A stretch of 64,000 nt of DNA from the sequence record MK327941.1, one strand, 5' to 3'. The first letter of the stretch is position 1. Every line of letters starts with the position of its first letter. Below are positions 41,476 to 47,541 of this stretch, one piece after another. Under the pieces are notes generated by a model that worked only from the letters and a program-made list of their open reading frames with translations, was not told the origin of the DNA and ran no database searches. Both the position numbers and the translations under genes were made by a program. The DNA comes from Escherichia phage vB_EcoM_G37-3.

Positions 41476-43719
41476 TTACAGCTTACAGGATGAACACTCG
41501 CTAGCGTCTTCCGTACCATCAGCACCATCACGCACGTTAGCGTAATACAGTGTCTTGAGGCCGTAATATTGAGCAAACAGCATATCATCTAACACATCAG
41601 CAATATCGACTTTACCAGTCTTATAAGTGCTTGGATCATAGGATGTATTGGAACTAATCGCCTGATCTACAAACTTCTGCATGATCGCTGCCAGTGTCAG
41701 ATAGGGCTTGTTACCTTTCTTGATCAGTGTCCAAAGCAGGTCAATAACATCAGCATTATTCTCTACGTTCGGAATAACCTGATTAAATTGCCCTTCTTTC
41801 GATCCTTTAACCGATACAATCCCGCGAGGCGGTTCAATACCGTTTGTGCTGTTAGATACCTGAGAAGATGACTCACAAGGCATCAGCGCCGAAAGCGTAC
41901 TGTTACGAATGCCATATTTTTTCAGGTCTTCGCGCAGTTCTTCCCAATCCATCTCATACACCGGATCAACCAGTTCATCTACTGTCTTTTTGTACCAGTC
42001 GATAGGAAGTTCACCGCGACCATAGCGTGTTTCGTGCATCAGTTCGCAAGCACCCTTCTCTTTAGCCAGTCGCACACTAGCCTTAATCAGAGCATATTGC
42101 AAGCGTTCAAACGTTTTATGCGTAAACTCGTTAGCGTCTTCATATGTGAAGAAATTATCTGCTAGATATGATGCAAAGTTAGTCACGCCAACGCCCAGAG
42201 ATCGACGTTTTTTGGCTGTCAGAGCTTGTTCTACAGGATAATCCTGATAATCTAACAGGTTGTCAAGTGCACGCACCATAACCATAGCAATGCGTTCTAC
42301 TTCTTCCATATTTTCGATATCGAAATTACCTAAAACATATGCTGCCAAAGTACATAGGCTAATTTCTGAATCATCACGACCCATCGGTTTTGTTGGCAGA
42401 GCAATTTCACAACACAGGTTAGATTGTTTAATCGGTGCTACATTACGAATAAACGCCCCGTGATTGTTCATGTTGTCTGTGAACGCTGGATAGATTCGAC
42501 CAGTGTTAAAACGTTCAATTGCCACCGCTAAAAACAGGTCTTCGGCTTTAACACGAGTTTTACGAACACTCGGATCTTTTTCCAGTTTTTCGTAAAGCTG
42601 ACGGAAACCTTCCTCATCTCGGAAGTACAGATCCCACAACAAGCCACCTGCAACATCTGGACTAAACAGAGTAATGTAATCCCGTTTAAGGAATCGCTCT
42701 ACCATCAGGTTATTAATCTGTACGCCGTAATCAAGATGACGAATGCGGTTATCTTCTACCCCCTTATTGTTCTTTAACACAATCAGACTTTCAAACTCTA
42801 AATGCCACATTGGGTAATAGAGAGTCGCCGCCCCGCCACGAATACCGCCTTGTGAGCATGACTTAACGGCAGTCTGAAAATGTTTCCAGAATGGGATAAC
42901 TCCAGTATGACGAACTTCACCATGCCCGATCTTAGATCCTTCCGCGCGAATCATGCCAGCGTTGATACCGATACCAGCACGCTTGCTAATATACTTGATG
43001 ATTGCATTTGCGGTTTCATTAATACCCTGCAATGAGTCATCACTTTCAATCACCACACACGAACTAAATTGGCGTGTTGGGGTACGCACACCTGCCATAA
43101 TCGGAGTAGGCAGAGAGATTTGCTTATTCGCAACCGCATTATAAAAATCAATCACATGTTCAAGTCGATTTTCTGTCTCTTCTTGATGCAAGCACATACC
43201 GATCAGCATATACGCAAATTGCGGTGTTTCGATGATTTTCTTAGTGCTGCGATCCTGAACAAGATATTTCTCTTTTAACTGCATCGCACCAGCATAGGTC
43301 ATTTTAAAATCAAGTTTATGGTCGATGAATTTCTCCAGATATTCCACTTCTTCACGGGAATACTTTTGCAGAATTTCACGATCATATTTTCCGGTTGCAA
43401 TATTACGCTCAATATGGCTGTAAAAATCAATCGGTTGGAATTGACCGTATACTGATTTGCGAAGCGCGAACATTGCAAGGTTACTTGCTACATATTGATA
43501 ATCAGGTGTTTCTACAGTAATGTTATCTGCTGCGACCTTAATCAATACTTTCTGGATATCATTGGTAGACATACCTTCTGTCAGAAGTGGTTCAACCATA
43601 TCAAACAATTCATATGGATCAACGTTATGACCTTCGGCTGCCGCTTCCAGAATTTTCATTACTTTTTCTTTTTCAAACGGAACAGTCAGACCGGAAGACT
43701 TAACAACATTTTTAATCAT
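41476..43719 (-). CDS. nrdA: Ribonucleotide reductase large subunit
   Basis: 747 aa; ATP-cone N-terminus, C-terminal CSSCKL-type tail; synteny. Confidence 0.9.
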   Translation of the reverse strand: MIKNVVKSSGLTVPFEKEKVMKILEAAAEGHNVDPYELFDMVEPLLTEGMSTNDIQKVLIKVAADNITVETPDYQYVASNLAMFALRKSVYGQFQPIDFYSHIERNIATGKYDREILQKYSREEVEYLEKFIDHKLDFKMTYAGAMQLKEKYLVQDRSTKKIIETPQFAYMLIGMCLHQEETENRLEHVIDFYNAVANKQISLPTPIMAGVRTPTRQFSSCVVIESDDSLQGINETANAIIKYISKRAGIGINAGMIRAEGSKIGHGEVRHTGVIPFWKHFQTAVKSCSQGGIRGGAATLYYPMWHLEFESLIVLKNNKGVEDNRIRHLDYGVQINNLMVERFLKRDYITLFSPDVAGGLLWDLYFRDEEGFRQLYEKLEKDPSVRKTRVKAEDLFLAVAIERFNTGRIYPAFTDNMNNHGAFIRNVAPIKQSNLCCEIALPTKPMGRDDSEISLCTLAAYVLGNFDIENMEEVERIAMVMVRALDNLLDYQDYPVEQALTAKKRRSLGVGVTNFASYLADNFFTYEDANEFTHKTFERLQYALIKASVRLAKEKGACELMHETRYGRGELPIDWYKKTVDELVDPVYEMDWEELREDLKKYGIRNSTLSALMPCESSSQVSNSTNGIEPPRGIVSVKGSKEGQFNQVIPNVENNADVIDLLWTLIKKGNKPYLTLAAIMQKFVDQAISSNTSYDPSTYKTGKVDIADVLDDMLFAQYYGLKTLYYANVRDGADGTEDASECSSCKL

Positions 43720-43788
43720 ATTACCTCACTTCATATTTTAGCAGGAACAAGTTTTATCCTCCATATTGGGGGCTTTCGCCCCCTTTGT

Positions 43789-45009
43789 TTATACTGCCAT
43801 TTGAGCGGTGATCGCTGGATGGCTTTGATAGTTGTGAATTTTAAAATCTTTCGGAGTCTTTGTCAATACCTCATCTAAAGATTTAAATTCCGGCAACTCA
43901 ATTGTTGGTTTATCAAACGGAACACGGCTTAACTGTTCCATAACTTGATCAAAATGGTTTTTGTAAATGTGAGTATCTCCACCAGAGAAAATCAGTTCTC
44001 CTACCTCAAGATCACACATTTTCGCTATGATGTGAGTTAACAGCGCATAGCTGGCGACGTTAAAGGGCAAGCCCAAAAAGCAGTCTACGCTTCGCTGAAA
44101 CCACATACAAGACAGTTTACCTTCATTGACGTAGAATTGTACGAACGGATGACATACACCCAATACAGCATTATGTGTTCCTTGTACGTTCCATGAGTCA
44201 ATGATGATACGTCGATCCGTTGGATTGTTTTTAATTTGTTCAATCACGTTTTGTAACTGGTCTTCCCAAATCTTCGGGCGATAGACATATTCTTCATCGT
44301 CTTTAGTGCTTGATGTGTCTACGTCCATACTAACAAACATCGTGGTATCCGGTGCTATAATATCCCCACCCAGATAATCACTATCAAGCAGATAACCGAA
44401 ATAACCATCATCTACCCATTCCTGGAATCCCCACAAGCAATATGCATCATTAACAAAATTAGATTGAGTCTTCCAGTGGTCTGCTACCAGAATATAATCA
44501 AACTCTTCATAACGCATACCACGCCAGATAGCACATAAACGGTCTTCTGTGTCATTGGTTGGCGTAAAGTCTTCTACCCACGGGTGCTTAAATGTATGTG
44601 TATATTTGCTCTTAACGCGCTTAATTTTGATTTCACCATGTGGATGAATCGGTTTGCGTCGCCACGCCATACCATACATATTGCCGACATTATAACCATT
44701 GAATCGCAAGGGATTCTTTTCTTTCATATCAAGACAGTTGCCGCGCCAAATATCAAAGGCTTCCTCGTCAAACTTGCCGCGTGTAATTTCCTGTAAGCGA
44801 CGGCGGTCAAGTGATCCATCCATAAACCATAGCAATTCGCCAATTACAGAGGCTGTAGCCATCTTTTTAGTGGTCAGTAATGGGAAACCCTTGCTTAAAT
44901 CAATTCGCATCTCTGCGCCGAATTTAGAGAGCGTACCTACCCCCGTGCGGTCTTCACGAGGACAGCCATTATCAAGAACATCACGCAATAGTTTCAAATA
45001 TTCTTTCAT
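43789..45009 (-). CDS. td: Thymidylate synthase with about 125-aa internal insertion
   Basis: TS motifs (DRTGVGT, RRIIIDSWN, VCHPFVQFYV, RSVDCFLGLPFNVASYALL, GDTHIY) in one 406-aa ORF; T4 Td is 286 aa. Confidence 0.8.
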   Translation of the reverse strand: MKEYLKLLRDVLDNGCPREDRTGVGTLSKFGAEMRIDLSKGFPLLTTKKMATASVIGELLWFMDGSLDRRRLQEITRGKFDEEAFDIWRGNCLDMKEKNPLRFNGYNVGNMYGMAWRRKPIHPHGEIKIKRVKSKYTHTFKHPWVEDFTPTNDTEDRLCAIWRGMRYEEFDYILVADHWKTQSNFVNDAYCLWGFQEWVDDGYFGYLLDSDYLGGDIIAPDTTMFVSMDVDTSSTKDDEEYVYRPKIWEDQLQNVIEQIKNNPTDRRIIIDSWNVQGTHNAVLGVCHPFVQFYVNEGKLSCMWFQRSVDCFLGLPFNVASYALLTHIIAKMCDLEVGELIFSGGDTHIYKNHFDQVMEQLSRVPFDKPTIELPEFKSLDEVLTKTPKDFKIHNYQSHPAITAQMAV

Positions 45010-45250
45010 CCCACATCACCTTTTTCTTATTGATTGCTTTCTTACGCAGTTTTGCTACTGTCTCGTCAATGTCTATAAAGATAACACCACGGTCGAATAT
45101 AGTAGCAGGTCTTGATATATCGCTATTTTCTTGCACAGGAAGCCATGATGCGCTCGCTTCATCATAGAGATATTGTAAACCGTAATAATCTACGGCTACT
45201 GCGTAGTTTTCACTGGTAGCTGACCATAATTGAATAATACCGACTTTCAT
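44981..45250 (-). CDS. Hypothetical protein
   Basis: Start at ATG 45250 (MKVGIIQLW), overlapping-stop coupling with upstream zinc-ribbon ORF. Confidence 0.4.
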   Translation of the reverse strand: MKVGIIQLWSATSENYAVAVDYYGLQYLYDEASASWLPVQENSDISRPATIFDRGVIFIDIDETVAKLRKKAINKKKVMWDERIFETIA

Positions 45251-45333
45251 TATTGTTCCCGTCCGCAATGTAAACACCGACTACCAGCAAACATCAAAGA
45301 TTCACCACAATGTTTGCACTCATAATCTGTCAG
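45241..45333 (-). CDS. Zinc-ribbon micro-protein (29 aa)
   Basis: MKILTDYECKHCGESLMFAGSRCLHCGREQ; GAAGG RBS. Confidence 0.35.
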
Positions 45334-45343
45334 AATTTTCATG

Positions 45344-45925
45344 TTACGCCTTCTTACGTTCTAAAATTTGTTCGCTGATCAGGTAATCATCAAGGAAGTA
45401 ATTATGTTCTTCTTTTGTTGCAAAGTCAAAATATAATTCCTGAATCATTTCCTTAGAGATGCCAACATCATATTCAAACGGATCATTAATTCCTGGTCGT
45501 TGAACATACGTTAACACAATACGGTCCGCAAAGTCAACTGCTTTTTCAATCAGGGAAGGTCCGCCAATAACGCTTACCAAACCTTGCAATTTCTCTATGA
45601 CTTCTAATAATTCCTTCAATCCACCATCATTAGTAATCGCGGTATACACATCTGGTTGGTCGCCGTTTTTTGCTTTCGGTGCTGGCTTACTGGTATCGGT
45701 GCTAACAACCACATTCACACGACCTTCCAGTGCTTTAGGGAGACTTTCAAAGGTATTACGTCCCATTACAACCGCCGCAAGATCAACATCTCCCATAGTG
45801 CGCATTTTAAAGTTTTCCATGTCCTTTTTGATTGGACGTCCCCACGGTAAACCGCCTTTAAAACCAAAAGCCCAATTTTCATCTGACATTTTAGTATCAC
45901 CAATCGCAAATACACATTGAATCAT
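45344..45925 (-). CDS. frd: Dihydrofolate reductase
   Basis: 193 aa (same as T4 Frd); GLPWGRP motif. Confidence 0.85.
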   Translation of the reverse strand: MIQCVFAIGDTKMSDENWAFGFKGGLPWGRPIKKDMENFKMRTMGDVDLAAVVMGRNTFESLPKALEGRVNVVVSTDTSKPAPKAKNGDQPDVYTAITNDGGLKELLEVIEKLQGLVSVIGGPSLIEKAVDFADRIVLTYVQRPGINDPFEYDVGISKEMIQELYFDFATKEEHNYFLDDYLISEQILERKKA

Positions 45926-46317: not shown

Positions 46318-47541
46318 TTACGCTGTCAACTCTTTTTCAAAAGATTTTACGATATACATGATGGTGCTCAATTCGGACGGCGCTACTGTCTCTGTGTAGC
46401 CATCCGGCATATCTTCTTTCGAGATATAGGAAGTTTTACCTTTCATTGCTTCCTTGATTTTGTTCTCTAATTCTAAGATCTTTTGACCGTCTTGTAAAGT
46501 CAATTCATAAAAGATCTCATGATCGAACTTTGAAACACGAGATTGGTTTCTCATGCGCTCATGTGTTTCTTTGTTTGTTATTCCAAATTTCACGCCAACA
46601 AAGGAATCATTGTTGGTTAATTTCTGTATATAAAGAGTTCCTGTCTTTAATGCCTGATAACCATGCTTAGAACACAACGGGCAGCGTGTTCCGCGATTAA
46701 CAAAATTATCAATAGTTACATCCCATTCATGGTTACGTTCGCATGTCAGAAGTATTCTTGTTAATGCACCTTTCCACTTTCCTGAAATCCCAATAAATTT
46801 TAGTCTGTTGGTTTCGCATATTTTTTTAATTTGTTTTAATCGGTCACTTTTTGTTATTGGTGCTGTTCCGCTACATTTGCGACACCGACGACCTAGTTTG
46901 AACTTATCATAACTTTGTTCGTAAATGTGATTATTAGGACACTCAAATTTAAGTTTAGTTTTTGTTCCTCTCCATTCCCCAATTATACCCAAAAATTTAT
47001 AATCTCCTTTATTTTCATTTATATAAGATAAGGAATCTTCTTTATCATGCATCTTGCCCCCGTTACATAAAGGACATCTTGTTTTTTGATGAATGAAATC
47101 TGTATATGTTGGTTGGTATGTGTGTCCGTTTGTACAGTTCATAATGAGTCTTGTTCTGCTATTTTTATACTCCCCACCAACAAAACCAACAAATACATCG
47201 TTTGTTTCTTGTTTTATTCTTTCTATCACATTGTTTGGGTTTAATCTTTGAGAATCAACCACACATTTCTTACACGAAACTTTTTTCCTGATATTTGCTA
47301 GAGTTGATGTGTATTCATGCTTGTTATTACATAATATAAGAGCTTTTGTTTTGAGACCAGACCATTCTCCAACAAACCCCATGAAAGAATAACCAACTTC
47401 CAAACATGAATTTTTTACAACATTTTCCCAATAGAAGGGAGTTTTCGTGTTTCCTTTTATTTCTATACGAATCTCGTGTGCTTGACGTACCAACATATTT
47501 TTATCCTCCGTTGTTTCGATGATTGTATTATACATTACCAC
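46318..47541 (-). CDS. Zinc-ribbon-repeat protein with C-terminal T5orf172 (GIY-YIG-like) domain
   Basis: Four repeats of F.G..GEW.G..T...L.C...H.....Y..F....RC..C; C-terminal GTLYIQKL...VGVKFGITN..THERMRNQ. Confidence 0.5.
   Translation of the reverse strand: MVMYNTIIETTEDKNMLVRQAHEIRIEIKGNTKTPFYWENVVKNSCLEVGYSFMGFVGEWSGLKTKALILCNNKHEYTSTLANIRKKVSCKKCVVDSQRLNPNNVIERIKQETNDVFVGFVGGEYKNSRTRLIMNCTNGHTYQPTYTDFIHQKTRCPLCNGGKMHDKEDSLSYINENKGDYKFLGIIGEWRGTKTKLKFECPNNHIYEQSYDKFKLGRRCRKCSGTAPITKSDRLKQIKKICETNRLKFIGISGKWKGALTRILLTCERNHEWDVTIDNFVNRGTRCPLCSKHGYQALKTGTLYIQKLTNNDSFVGVKFGITNKETHERMRNQSRVSKFDHEIFYELTLQDGQKILELENKIKEAMKGKTSYISKEDMPDGYTETVAPSELSTIMYIVKSFEKELTA

What the first reader, a model, noticed from the sequence alone, without database searches (positions are those of the whole stretch)
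43789..45009. Thymidylate synthase with a large internal insertion rather than an intron
All canonical TS blocks are present in one uninterrupted 406-aa ORF, but about 125 residues (roughly IHPHGEIKIKRVK...YVYRPKIWE) are inserted between the WRRKP region and the DQL...RRII block. T4 td is instead interrupted by a group I intron; here there is no frame break. The insert has no intein hallmarks that I can see, so it may be a novel inserted domain.
Basis: partly seen in the sequence, partly recalled or inferred. Interest (0 to 1): 0.55.

Follow-up and report, generated by a model that had tools for sequence, protein, structure and literature searches.

The report
Endonuclease relic inside phage thymidylate synthase
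This phage's thymidylate synthase carries, in one unbroken reading frame, a 132-residue extra domain that is the worn-down remnant of a DNA-cutting "homing endonuclease", and other phages keep that endonuclease intact at exactly the same spot, which suggests selfish nucleases can live inside an essential enzyme without an intron or an intein.

Summary
Window 43789-45009 (minus strand) is one 406-aa ORF, the td gene of an RB49-like coliphage (Krischvirus). A complete thymidylate synthase (TS) is interrupted once, between W116-R117 and D250-Q251, by a 132-aa block. The block is not an intein, not an intron, and not scattered indels.

The Krischvirus insert is a cut-down derivative. It lacks the N-terminal β-domain, the motif helix and the C-terminal module. 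Lys, Tyr and Asn are replaced, and it is acidic (pI 4.8 versus 9.0). It still models confidently (pLDDT 94.7), evolves under purifying selection (dN/dS about 0.2) and is present in all 58 Krischvirus records.

The long form looks mobile: ph0011 differs from its sister phage 121Q by a replaced central td segment. No paper describing this was found.

The parts
43789..45009 (-). td gene: 406-aa thymidylate synthase with an internal insert (predicted 47.3 kDa unspliced; 31.5 kDa if residues 118-249 were removed)
   Evidence: ORF list and translation; Pfam PF00303 at 284 bits; 96.8-99.5% identity to td of Krischvirus phages such as kvi and RB49; masses computed
44659..45009 (-). TS N-terminal core, residues 1-117, ending in the invariant G-x-x-Y-x-x-x-W116-R117 block
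   Evidence: Aligns to E. coli ThyA 1-82 and onwards; invariant columns in A1
44263..44658 (-). 132-aa insert, residues 118-249: a degenerate relic of an in-frame endonuclease module (PHROG 2081 family, labelled HNH)
   Evidence: Single block in A1. tblastn with the KP13-7 long insert hits RB49-type td inserts at E 1e-11 (H69/H70). Profile search A4. AF2 pLDDT 94.7. dN/dS 0.14-0.31. pI 4.83
44620..44652 (-). N-terminal stalk strand of the insert (PIHPHGEIKIK, residues 120-130). It is conserved in TS-embedded forms and absent from the free-standing proteins aligned here
   Evidence: AF2 strand E3-13; alignments A1 and A4
44410..44553 (-). Helical subdomain (residues 153-200) with the family motif L..IW..M ... 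V..HW..x.NF..D...LWGFQEWVD. W162, W179 and F185 are invariant across the family
   Evidence: AF2 helices H36-54, H60-72, H78-83; invariant W45, W62, F68 of the insert in A4 and A5
44329..44394 (-). Degenerate β-β remnant of the putative nuclease motif (YLLDSDYLGGDIIAPDTTMFVS, residues 206-227). D209-S210-D211 replaces D-K-D, and I218 replaces the invariant Tyr. The following helix with the invariant Asn is missing (D231 aligns there)
   Evidence: Column-by-column table; secondary structure of the short and long models
44266..44289 (-). C-terminal stalk strand (YVYRPKIW, residues 241-248). The V-x-R-P-x-I motif is shared by nearly all TS-embedded inserts
   Evidence: AF2 strand E124-131; alignments A1 and A4
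43792..44262 (-). TS C-terminal core, residues 250-406, starting at the invariant D250-Q251. It contains the catalytic C286 and R306/S307/D309/N317/H347/Y349
   Evidence: Aligns to E. coli ThyA 110-264; invariant columns; residues verified

Best explanation
The gene encodes a working thymidylate synthase. Its surface loop between E. coli ThyA R99 and D110 has been replaced by the eroded core of a homing-endonuclease-like protein.

Inferred history: a free-standing phage endonuclease of the PHROG 2081 family became inserted in frame into the loop-coding part of a phage td gene. That family has an N-terminal small β-domain, a helical W..M..RC subdomain, and a β-β-α unit with D-K-D...Y...N that resembles the Tyr-type His-Me finger of PacI. 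Many members also have a NUMOD/HTH tail. Once inserted, the module is displayed on a two-stranded β stalk and stays in the mature enzyme; there is no RNA or protein splicing.

In many phages this long form is intact and behaves like a mobile element. In the Krischvirus lineage the N-terminal β-domain, the motif helix and the C-terminal DNA-binding tail were deleted, and the conserved Lys, Tyr and Asn were substituted. This leaves an acidic 132-residue domain that can almost certainly neither cut nor bind DNA. It persists under purifying selection, most likely because TS must fold around it. Imprecise deletion would damage an essential enzyme. A secondary structural or interaction role is possible but not shown.

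Shown: the single-block insertion, homology to the long inserts and to free-standing proteins, loss of the conserved motif residues, the confident fold, purifying selection, and fixation in the genus. Inferred: nuclease activity of the long forms, the direction of evolution (long to short), absence of splicing, and TS activity.
For: (1) Single block at one invariant site. All 76 TS with an insert of at least 100 aa share profile position 123.
(2) Long inserts hit PHROG 2081 'HNH endonuclease' at E 1e-16 to 1e-42, and also PHROGs 953, 374, 3377 and 8790. The window insert alone gives E 0.068 to the same family.
(3) tblastn with the KP13-7 insert finds 1,440 phage records, mostly free-standing genes lying between replication or nucleotide-metabolism genes. 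It also finds RB49-type td inserts at E 1e-11.
(4) An exhaustive profile search finds 97,242 representatives at E<=1e-3, and 67 of the top 147 contain a TS domain.
(6) In long-TS and free-standing members the motif residues are near-invariant: D164 24/24 and 35/35, K165 23/24 and 34/35, D166 23/24 and 35/35, Y173 24/24 and 35/35, N186 21/24 and 35/35. The window has D, S, D, I, D and no helix. All short forms have lost K and Y.
(7) TS-embedded long inserts carry I-HmuI NUMOD-like domains at 31.7 and 29.6 bits, above the cutoff of 27. The window insert has none.
(8) The short insert has pI 4.83; the long insert has pI 9.01.
(9) dN/dS is 0.14-0.31 in the insert and 0.02-0.08 in the core outside the mosaic patch. 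Insert identity is 51-56% against 62-72% for the core in P0003-5.
(10) The insert is present in 58 of 58 Krischvirus records.
(11) The window's TS clade contains both short and long forms, and free-standing relatives have the full architecture.
(12) Intermediates exist: 194- and 197-aa inserts lack the β-domain, one of them confirmed to retain LDKD/Y/N, and P0014 (163 aa) is a further partly reduced form.

Against: Purifying selection, a pLDDT of 94.7, and retention across lineages only about 52% identical (P0006) are more than a mere passenger strictly needs. They could mean the relic has a function of its own.

The long-to-short direction is inferred from parsimony on a rough NJ tree. TS activity and the absence of splicing are inferred from sequence only.
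Confidence: 0.75

Rival explanations
1. Exapted domain. The relic is retained because it gained a selected function of its own in Krischvirus Td. Candidates are a protein-protein contact in the phage dNTP-synthesis complex, regulation of TS, or protection of td from cleavage by related endonucleases because the target site is disrupted.
For: dN/dS of 0.14-0.31 is well below 1. The fold is confident and compact. The insert is fixed in 58 of 58 genomes and kept in lineages down to about 52% identity. Blocks such as DAYCLWGFQEWVD and APDT.IF are strongly conserved among short forms, even though the putative catalytic residues are gone.
Against: No partner, ligand or motif is identified. Constraint could simply reflect the need for a loop-embedded domain to fold without poisoning TS. 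The insert evolves three to five times faster than the core at non-synonymous sites. In-frame indels are tolerated inside it.
Confidence: 0.25
2. The Krischvirus insert is still an active, mobile homing endonuclease.
For: It is homologous to a family that looks mobile elsewhere. td alleles in the genus are mosaic, with a breakpoint about five codons after the insert.
Against: K165, Y173 and N186 equivalents are S, I and D, and the motif helix is absent. The N-terminal β-domain and the NUMOD/HTH tail are missing. The pI is acidic at 4.83. It is present in every genome of the genus, so there are no empty sites to home into.
Confidence: 0.04
3. It is an intein or other self-excising protein element.
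For: It is an in-frame insertion in a conserved nucleotide-metabolism enzyme, which is the typical intein niche.
Confidence: 0.01
4. It is a lineage-specific elaboration of the TS loop, a de novo or TS-derived domain unrelated to endonucleases. On this reading the resemblance to the endonuclease family is spurious.
For: The insert alone has no Pfam or PDB sequence hit and only E=0.068 to PHROG 2081. TS is known to tolerate length variation at this loop, from 5 to 33 residues.
Against: There is direct tblastn similarity to the KP13-7 long insert at E 1e-11 over about 120 residues. It shares invariant W, W and F and the conserved LWGFQEWVD block with long inserts and free-standing proteins. It shares junction motifs and the identical insertion point.
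Confidence: 0.02
5. It is an unrecognised intron or a sequencing/annotation artefact read through as protein.
For: T4 td has a group I intron, and Bacillus phage td genes are split by intron endonucleases (H166).
Against: The ORF is uninterrupted and conserved at the protein level, with dN/dS below 1, across 58 independent genomes. There is no Rfam match. GC content is like the rest of the gene, 0.41 against 0.40-0.45.
Confidence: 0.01

Closest known systems
Free-standing phage 'HNH endonuclease' genes of PHROG 2081 and related PHROGs 953, 374 and 3377. Examples are Vibrio phage D391 VPHD391_0038 (174 aa) and Vibrio phage K408 VPHK408_0176 (273 aa)
   Same: They belong to the same protein family as the long TS inserts, with the β-domain, the W..M..RC helices, and LDKD...YSP.TC.F...N, at E down to 1e-42. 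They sit between conserved replication and nucleotide-metabolism genes, and in K408 the gene lies just upstream of td.
   Different: They are separate ORFs, not embedded in a host enzyme. The window's insert retains only the middle third of the architecture and has lost the conserved K, Y and N.
Inteins carrying homing-endonuclease domains (for example PI-SceI, mycobacteriophage inteins)
   Same: An endonuclease module sits in frame inside a conserved enzyme gene. In the long-form relatives the distribution is sporadic and flanking sequence is co-converted.
   Different: There is no Hint splicing domain and there are no splice-junction residues, so the insert must remain in the mature protein. 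The nuclease type is HNH-like, whereas the best-studied intein endonucleases are LAGLIDADG-type (own knowledge).
Intron-encoded td/thyA endonucleases: I-TevI (T4 td) and I-BmoI (Bacillus mojavensis thyA)
   Same: These are selfish endonucleases that colonise the thymidylate synthase gene of phages and bacteria.
   Different: They are GIY-YIG enzymes encoded in group I introns that are removed from the mRNA, and the introns lie near the active-site codons (own knowledge; reviewed in PMC2988022). Here there is no intron, the protein family is different, and the site is a surface loop.
PacI restriction endonuclease (PDB 3m7k), the Tyr-type His-Me finger (group 20 of Jablonska et al. 2017, PMC5714182)
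   Different: Similarity is marginal: 9-10% identity, no Foldseek hit, and no shared Zn-binding cysteines were checked. Membership is not established. The window's insert lacks the Tyr and the helix.
Known length variation in TS surface loops: the eukaryotic TS inserts and the ~50-residue insert of Lactobacillus casei-type TS
   Same: TS tolerates extra residues in the small domain around the G-x-x-Y-G-x-x-W-R block. Insert-less TS already vary from 5 to 33 residues at this exact spot.
   Different: Those are short loops or helices of TS itself (own knowledge). Here the extra residues are a 132-285-residue foreign domain with its own fold and free-standing relatives.

Membership tests
Thymidylate synthase ThyA (PF00303) | Profile match above the curated cutoff over the whole fold | tested here: met
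   284.1 bits against a cutoff of 24.3, in two stretches covering profile positions up to about 110 and 110-266. E 7e-69 to E. coli TS structures.
Thymidylate synthase ThyA (PF00303) | Catalytic Cys (E. coli C146) and dUMP/folate-binding residues (R21, E58, W80, R126', R127', R166, S167, D169, N177, H207, Y209) | tested here: met
   R21, E58, W88, R266, R267, C286, R306, S307, D309, N317, H347 and Y349 are all present and are invariant columns in A1.
Thymidylate synthase ThyA (PF00303) | Enzymatic dTMP synthesis | not testable with these tools
   Needs thyA complementation or an enzyme assay.
Intein | N-terminal Cys/Ser, C-terminal His-Asn, and Cys/Ser/Thr at +1 | tested here: not met
   The junctions are W-R|R-K-P-I... 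and ...K-I-W-E|D-Q.
Intein | Hint-domain fold or profile | tested here: not met
Group I intron | Ribozyme core interrupting the ORF | tested here: not met
   The ORF is uninterrupted. There is no Rfam match at E<=1 in 43500-45400.
PHROG 2081 'HNH endonuclease' family (long-insert and free-standing module) | Significant profile or sequence similarity | tested here: met
   For the window insert the direct hit is only E 0.068. However, tblastn with the KP13-7 long insert matches RB49-type inserts at E 1e-11. The long inserts score E 1e-16 to 1e-42. The joint profile A4 recovers both groups.
His-Me finger / HNH nuclease (Tyr-type, PacI-like) | β-β-α-metal topology | tested here: not met
   The window insert keeps strands E89-92 and E107-110 but has no following helix. 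The long insert does have strand 162-164, strand 179-181 and helix 183-193.
His-Me finger / HNH nuclease (Tyr-type, PacI-like) | Catalytic His, or a Tyr in the loop between the strands, plus a metal-binding Asn/His on the helix | tested here: not met
   The window has I218 at the Tyr column, S210 at the Lys column and D231 at the Asn column. Long and free-standing forms have Y in 59/59 and N in 56/59. The criterion is from PMC5714182.
His-Me finger / HNH nuclease (Tyr-type, PacI-like) | Significant structural or profile similarity to a solved or curated HNH domain (tested on the family as a whole) | tested here: inconclusive
Homing endonuclease (functional class) | Homing-endonuclease-type DNA-binding modules (NUMOD, I-TevI-like) | tested here: not met
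   The window insert has none. Long TS inserts and free-standing relatives have I-HmuI_NUMOD-like domains of up to 36 bits against a cutoff of 27.
Homing endonuclease (functional class) | Sporadic presence among close relatives, with co-conversion of flanks | tested here: not met
   The window's form is present in 58 of 58 Krischvirus records. For the long form the feature is met. ph0011 has the insert and 121Q and sister phages lack it, with a foreign central td segment flanked by DNA that is 92% and 86% identical. P0017 and insert-less P0099 share 83% core identity.
Homing endonuclease (functional class) | Site-specific DNA cleavage and biased inheritance | not testable with these tools
   Needs biochemistry and phage crosses.

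The most novel reading that the evidence does not exclude
The window's insert is the fossil of an undescribed class of mobile element: a homing endonuclease that colonises a protein-coding gene directly in frame, inside a permissive surface loop of thymidylate synthase. It has neither an intron nor an intein, so the host enzyme and the nuclease are one permanent polypeptide. The element would still be active and spreading between td genes in other phages (for example Asteriusvirus ph0011, Alcyoneusvirus KP13-7, UE-S1, Bacillus phage 015DV002, and dozens of metagenomic lineages). Krischviruses would preserve a domesticated, disarmed stump of it.
Probability: 0.5. Interest if true: 0.8.

Novelty: new variant of a known kind. 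Interest (0 to 1): 0.62.

Why it matters
Selfish endonucleases are generally thought to survive in essential genes only if something removes them, either a self-splicing intron or an intein, or if they stay between genes. Here the same endonuclease family is found free-standing next to td, embedded full-length in a TS surface loop in at least 63 TS cluster representatives, and as a disarmed stump fixed in a whole phage genus.

If the long forms are active, this is a third in-gene lifestyle: in frame and never excised. It would also give a natural series showing how such an element is tamed.

It offers tractable E. coli phage pairs for direct tests: ph0011 against 121Q, and RB49-like phages. 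It marks a loop in TS that tolerates domains of 130 to 285 residues, which is useful for protein engineering.

It also corrects annotation. Several of these td genes are labelled 'hypothetical protein' (ph0011, phiKp_21, pEJ01, Whisky, Cognac, Brandy).

Tried and rejected
- **Insert-only searches.** Pfam at E<=10, PDB sequences at E<=10, and the word-indexed 5.8-billion-protein search all returned nothing. The last is a limitation of the index, because relatives do exist.
- **Profile against PDB sequences.** Only chance hits to a glutamate receptor.
- **Fold libraries.** AFDB50 was not available. Foldseek against the PDB with the long-insert model gave no significant match, so I do not claim HNH membership, only resemblance.
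- **Intein, intron, artefact and de novo domain readings.** Rejected; see the rival explanations.
- **Compositional signature of recent transfer.** None found: insert GC is 0.41 against 0.40-0.45 in the flanking td and 0.40 for the window.
- **Literature.** Five full-text searches and three papers were checked for RB49 td, TS with HNH, and in-frame intein-less endonucleases. None describes this arrangement. The RB49 genome paper (PMC135041) is not held.
- **Other host enzymes.** Ten non-TS proteins of 433-724 aa with internal matches have no Pfam domain at all. They look like multi-module free-standing proteins, so there is no evidence for other hosts.
- **Names for metagenomic long-insert TS proteins.** None on record.

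Full report
**1. What is there**

Window 43789-45009 holds a single 406-codon ORF on the minus strand. The window is an RB49-like T4-type coliphage of the genus Krischvirus. The protein is 99.5% identical to td of phage kvi and 96.8% identical to RB49 td. The local gene order on the minus strand is: a CapR/zinc-ribbon endonuclease-like gene, a 120-aa ORF, frd (dihydrofolate reductase), a 98-aa ORF, td, then nrdA.

Pfam Thymidylat_synt scores 284 bits but in two stretches. Solved TS structures align to residues 1-82 and 250-406, with residue 250 matching E. coli D110. In an alignment with 24 relatives, W116, R117, D250 and Q251 are invariant, and the 132 residues between them form one block. 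Insert-less TS have only 5-33 residues there. All catalytic and substrate-binding residues are present.

There is no frame break and no Rfam hit. GC content is not unusual.

**2. What the insert is not**

It is not an intein. The junctions, R-K-P at the start and I-W-E|D at the end, lack every splice-site residue. No Hint or intein profile matches even at E 10. The predicted fold is not Hint-like. It is not an intron.

**3. What it is related to**

On its own the insert finds nothing in Pfam or the PDB, and only a marginal E 0.068 to PHROG 2081 'HNH endonuclease'. Searching with the whole protein revealed a series of long TS proteins:

- 401-414 aa, with RB49-type short inserts;
- 441 aa;
- 494-613 aa, with 223-284-aa inserts at the same site.

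The long inserts hit PHROG 2081 at E 1e-16 to 1e-42 over profile positions of about 25-216 of 433, and they also hit four related endonuclease PHROGs.

tblastn with the insert of Klebsiella phage KP13-7/phiKp_21 finds 1,440 phage records. Most are free-standing genes annotated 'HNH endonuclease' or hypothetical. They are typically wedged between conserved DNA-metabolism genes:

- between primase and polymerase in Vibrio phage D391;
- next to the RNR alpha gene in ESCO9 and AV126;
- between an exonuclease gene and td in Vibrio phage K408.

The same query hits RB49-type td inserts at E 1e-11. That hit, together with shared invariant W/W/F positions, the LWGFQEWVD block and identical junction motifs, ties the window's insert to the family.

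An exhaustive profile search shows the module is very common: 97,242 cluster representatives at E<=1e-3. Of the top 147, 67 contain a TS domain. HMM mapping puts all 76 TS inserts of at least 100 aa at the same profile position.

**4. Architecture and likely chemistry of the full-length module**

The KP13-7 insert models at pLDDT 95.1. Its parts, in order, are:

- terminal strands that should pair as a stalk;
- a small N-terminal β-domain;
- a helical subdomain carrying the Y..W..M..RC motif;
- a strand(LDKD)-strand(TCIF)-helix unit;
- a small C-terminal α/β module.

D164, K165, D166, Y173 and N186 are near-invariant in both long TS inserts and free-standing proteins.

Family members, including TS-embedded ones, also carry the I-HmuI NUMOD-like DNA-binding domain, above Pfam's cutoff in several cases.

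The limits of this assignment need stating. No Pfam HNH model matches any member. Foldseek finds nothing significant. No member has been assayed. 'Works like a Tyr-type His-Me homing endonuclease' is therefore an inference, not a demonstrated membership.

**5. The window's version is a disarmed stump**

Relative to the long form it lacks the N-terminal β-domain, the helix of the β-β-α unit and the C-terminal module. At the near-invariant columns it has D-S-D instead of D-K-D, Ile instead of Tyr, and Asp with no helix instead of Asn. Every short-insert lineage has lost the Lys and the Tyr. Its pI is 4.83, against 9.01 for the long insert, which argues against DNA binding.

It is nevertheless not decaying freely:

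- AF2 gives pLDDT 94.7 for a compact domain flanked by two long strands.
- dN/dS is 0.14-0.31, against 0.02-0.08 for the core outside a mosaic patch.
- Insert identity to distant short-insert relatives is 37-56%, where the cores are 60-72%.
- All 58 Krischvirus records carry it, with only a 4-residue in-frame indel polymorphism.

Partly reduced forms exist. The 194- and 197-aa inserts have lost the β-domain. One of them is confirmed to keep the motif residues. P0014 has a further reduced 163-aa insert. The window's TS clade contains both long and short forms. Together these observations support reduction from long to short.

**6. Evidence that the long form is, or recently was, mobile**

On a rough NJ tree of 177 TS cores, insert presence needs at least seven changes. 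For 18 of 76 insert-bearing TS, the nearest core relative is insert-less. P0017, with a 272-aa insert, is 83% identical in core to insert-less P0099, which has a native ~30-residue loop at that place. Core and insert identities are only weakly correlated (Spearman 0.16), and some inserts are more alike than their cores, for example 64% against 56%.

The clearest case is in cultured phages. Most ~350-kb Asteriusvirus-type jumbo phages (121Q, PBECO4 and others) have a ~309-aa TS, but Asteriusvirus ph0011 has a 546-aa TS with the insert.

The ph0011 and 121Q loci are 91.7% identical up to td nucleotide 165 and 86.2% identical from ph0011 td nucleotide 1399 onward. The 1,233 nucleotides between those points do not align at all. 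That segment comprises the insert plus about 63 upstream and about 81 downstream TS codons, and its product is identical to the metagenomic protein P0015 in the regions compared.

A foreign patch centred on the insert, with co-converted flanks, is what endonuclease-initiated gene conversion leaves behind. Ordinary recombination between td alleles could also produce it.

**7. Mechanism proposed**

An endonuclease gene of this family entered the loop-coding region of a phage td gene in frame. The loop is the one place in this part of TS that tolerates length variation, so the enzyme stayed functional with the nuclease displayed on a β stalk. No splicing is needed or possible.

Where the nuclease is intact, it would cut insert-less td genes in co-infecting relatives and be copied in by repair, together with flanking td sequence.

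In the Krischvirus ancestor the element became fixed. With no empty sites left, selection on the nuclease lapsed. Deletions removed the DNA-binding and catalytic parts, leaving the smallest stump that still folds without harming TS.

Confidence in this account for the window's insert is about 0.75. The chance that the stump has acquired a function of its own is about 0.25.

**8. Novelty and score**

The gene sequence has long been public and is annotated simply as thymidylate synthase, or in several phages as 'hypothetical protein'. I found no paper describing the insert's origin or the TS-embedded endonuclease family, though the searchable library is incomplete.

The components are known kinds: homing endonucleases, td as a target, and loop insertions in TS. 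The arrangement is a new variant: in frame, unspliced, in an enzyme loop, with a full decay series. From my own knowledge, the nearest precedent is LAGLIDADG genes fused in frame to mitochondrial rps3 in fungi.

Interest is 0.62. The window's feature itself is a relic, but it points to a potentially new lifestyle for selfish nucleases that is directly testable in E. coli phages.

Noticed in passing
window 46318-47541 (minus strand): A 407-aa ORF with four CapR-homology domains and treble-clef zinc ribbons, matching PHROG 681 'endonuclease' at E 7e-101. It lies three ORFs upstream of td, beyond frd. Only 7 of 58 Krischvirus records have this 1.6-kb stretch full-length (for example GEC-3S at 99.8%); the others have about 41-46% of it. 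It looks like a polymorphic free-standing homing-endonuclease-like gene in the frd-td-nrdA neighbourhood.
   Followed up: partly
window 43960-44247 (td residues ~255-350): Krischvirus td alleles are mosaic. JSE, GEC-3S and KFS-EC carry a highly divergent patch (dS above 2, 44 non-synonymous differences) that starts about five codons after the insert and spans the TS active-site region. The insert and the C-terminal tail are identical or nearly so; window against GEC-3S shows zero differences in the insert. The patch resembles the P0003-type allele. It looks like a recent gene-conversion tract abutting the insert.
   Followed up: partly
window 44494-44499 (td residues 171-172, inside the insert): An in-frame 4-residue indel polymorphism: FD-YILV here and in JSE, GEC-3S and Phi1, against FDSEYN[LQ]FLV in RB49, KFS-EC and SSG23.
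   Followed up: no
L001 2387-4281 (Vibrio phage K408, OZ196578.1): A free-standing 273-aa member of the same endonuclease family sits immediately upstream of an ordinary 282-aa thymidylate synthase, with one small ORF between them, followed by frd. This is a possible snapshot of the association with td before insertion.
   Followed up: partly
proteins P0150, P0153, P0192, P0196, P0204, P0214, P0217 (metagenomic TS, 565-676 aa): In addition to the endonuclease insert, these TS show a second break in the TS match near TS position ~168, with about 20-100 extra residues. This suggests a second insertion hot-spot.
   Followed up: no
H166, Bacillus phage vB_BceH_LY2 (ON366411.1) 91129-94167: Here td is matched in four pieces over 3 kb, with 'intron-associated endonuclease 1' and 'HNH endonuclease' annotated in between. 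This is the classical intron route into td, in contrast to Bacillus phage 015DV002, whose td carries the in-frame insert.
   Followed up: no
window 44981-45277 (minus strand): A 98-aa ORF (PHROG 16012, unknown function) overlaps the td start by 29 nt. The arrangement is conserved in RB49, Phi1, JSE, GEC-3S, KFS-EC and SSG23, which suggests translational coupling with td.
   Followed up: no
protein P0002 (metagenomic, 406 aa): Another mosaic td allele. The N-terminal core is 98% identical to the window, but the insert is 86% and the C-terminal core 82% identical, so the breakpoint lies near the 5' edge of the insert.
   Followed up: no
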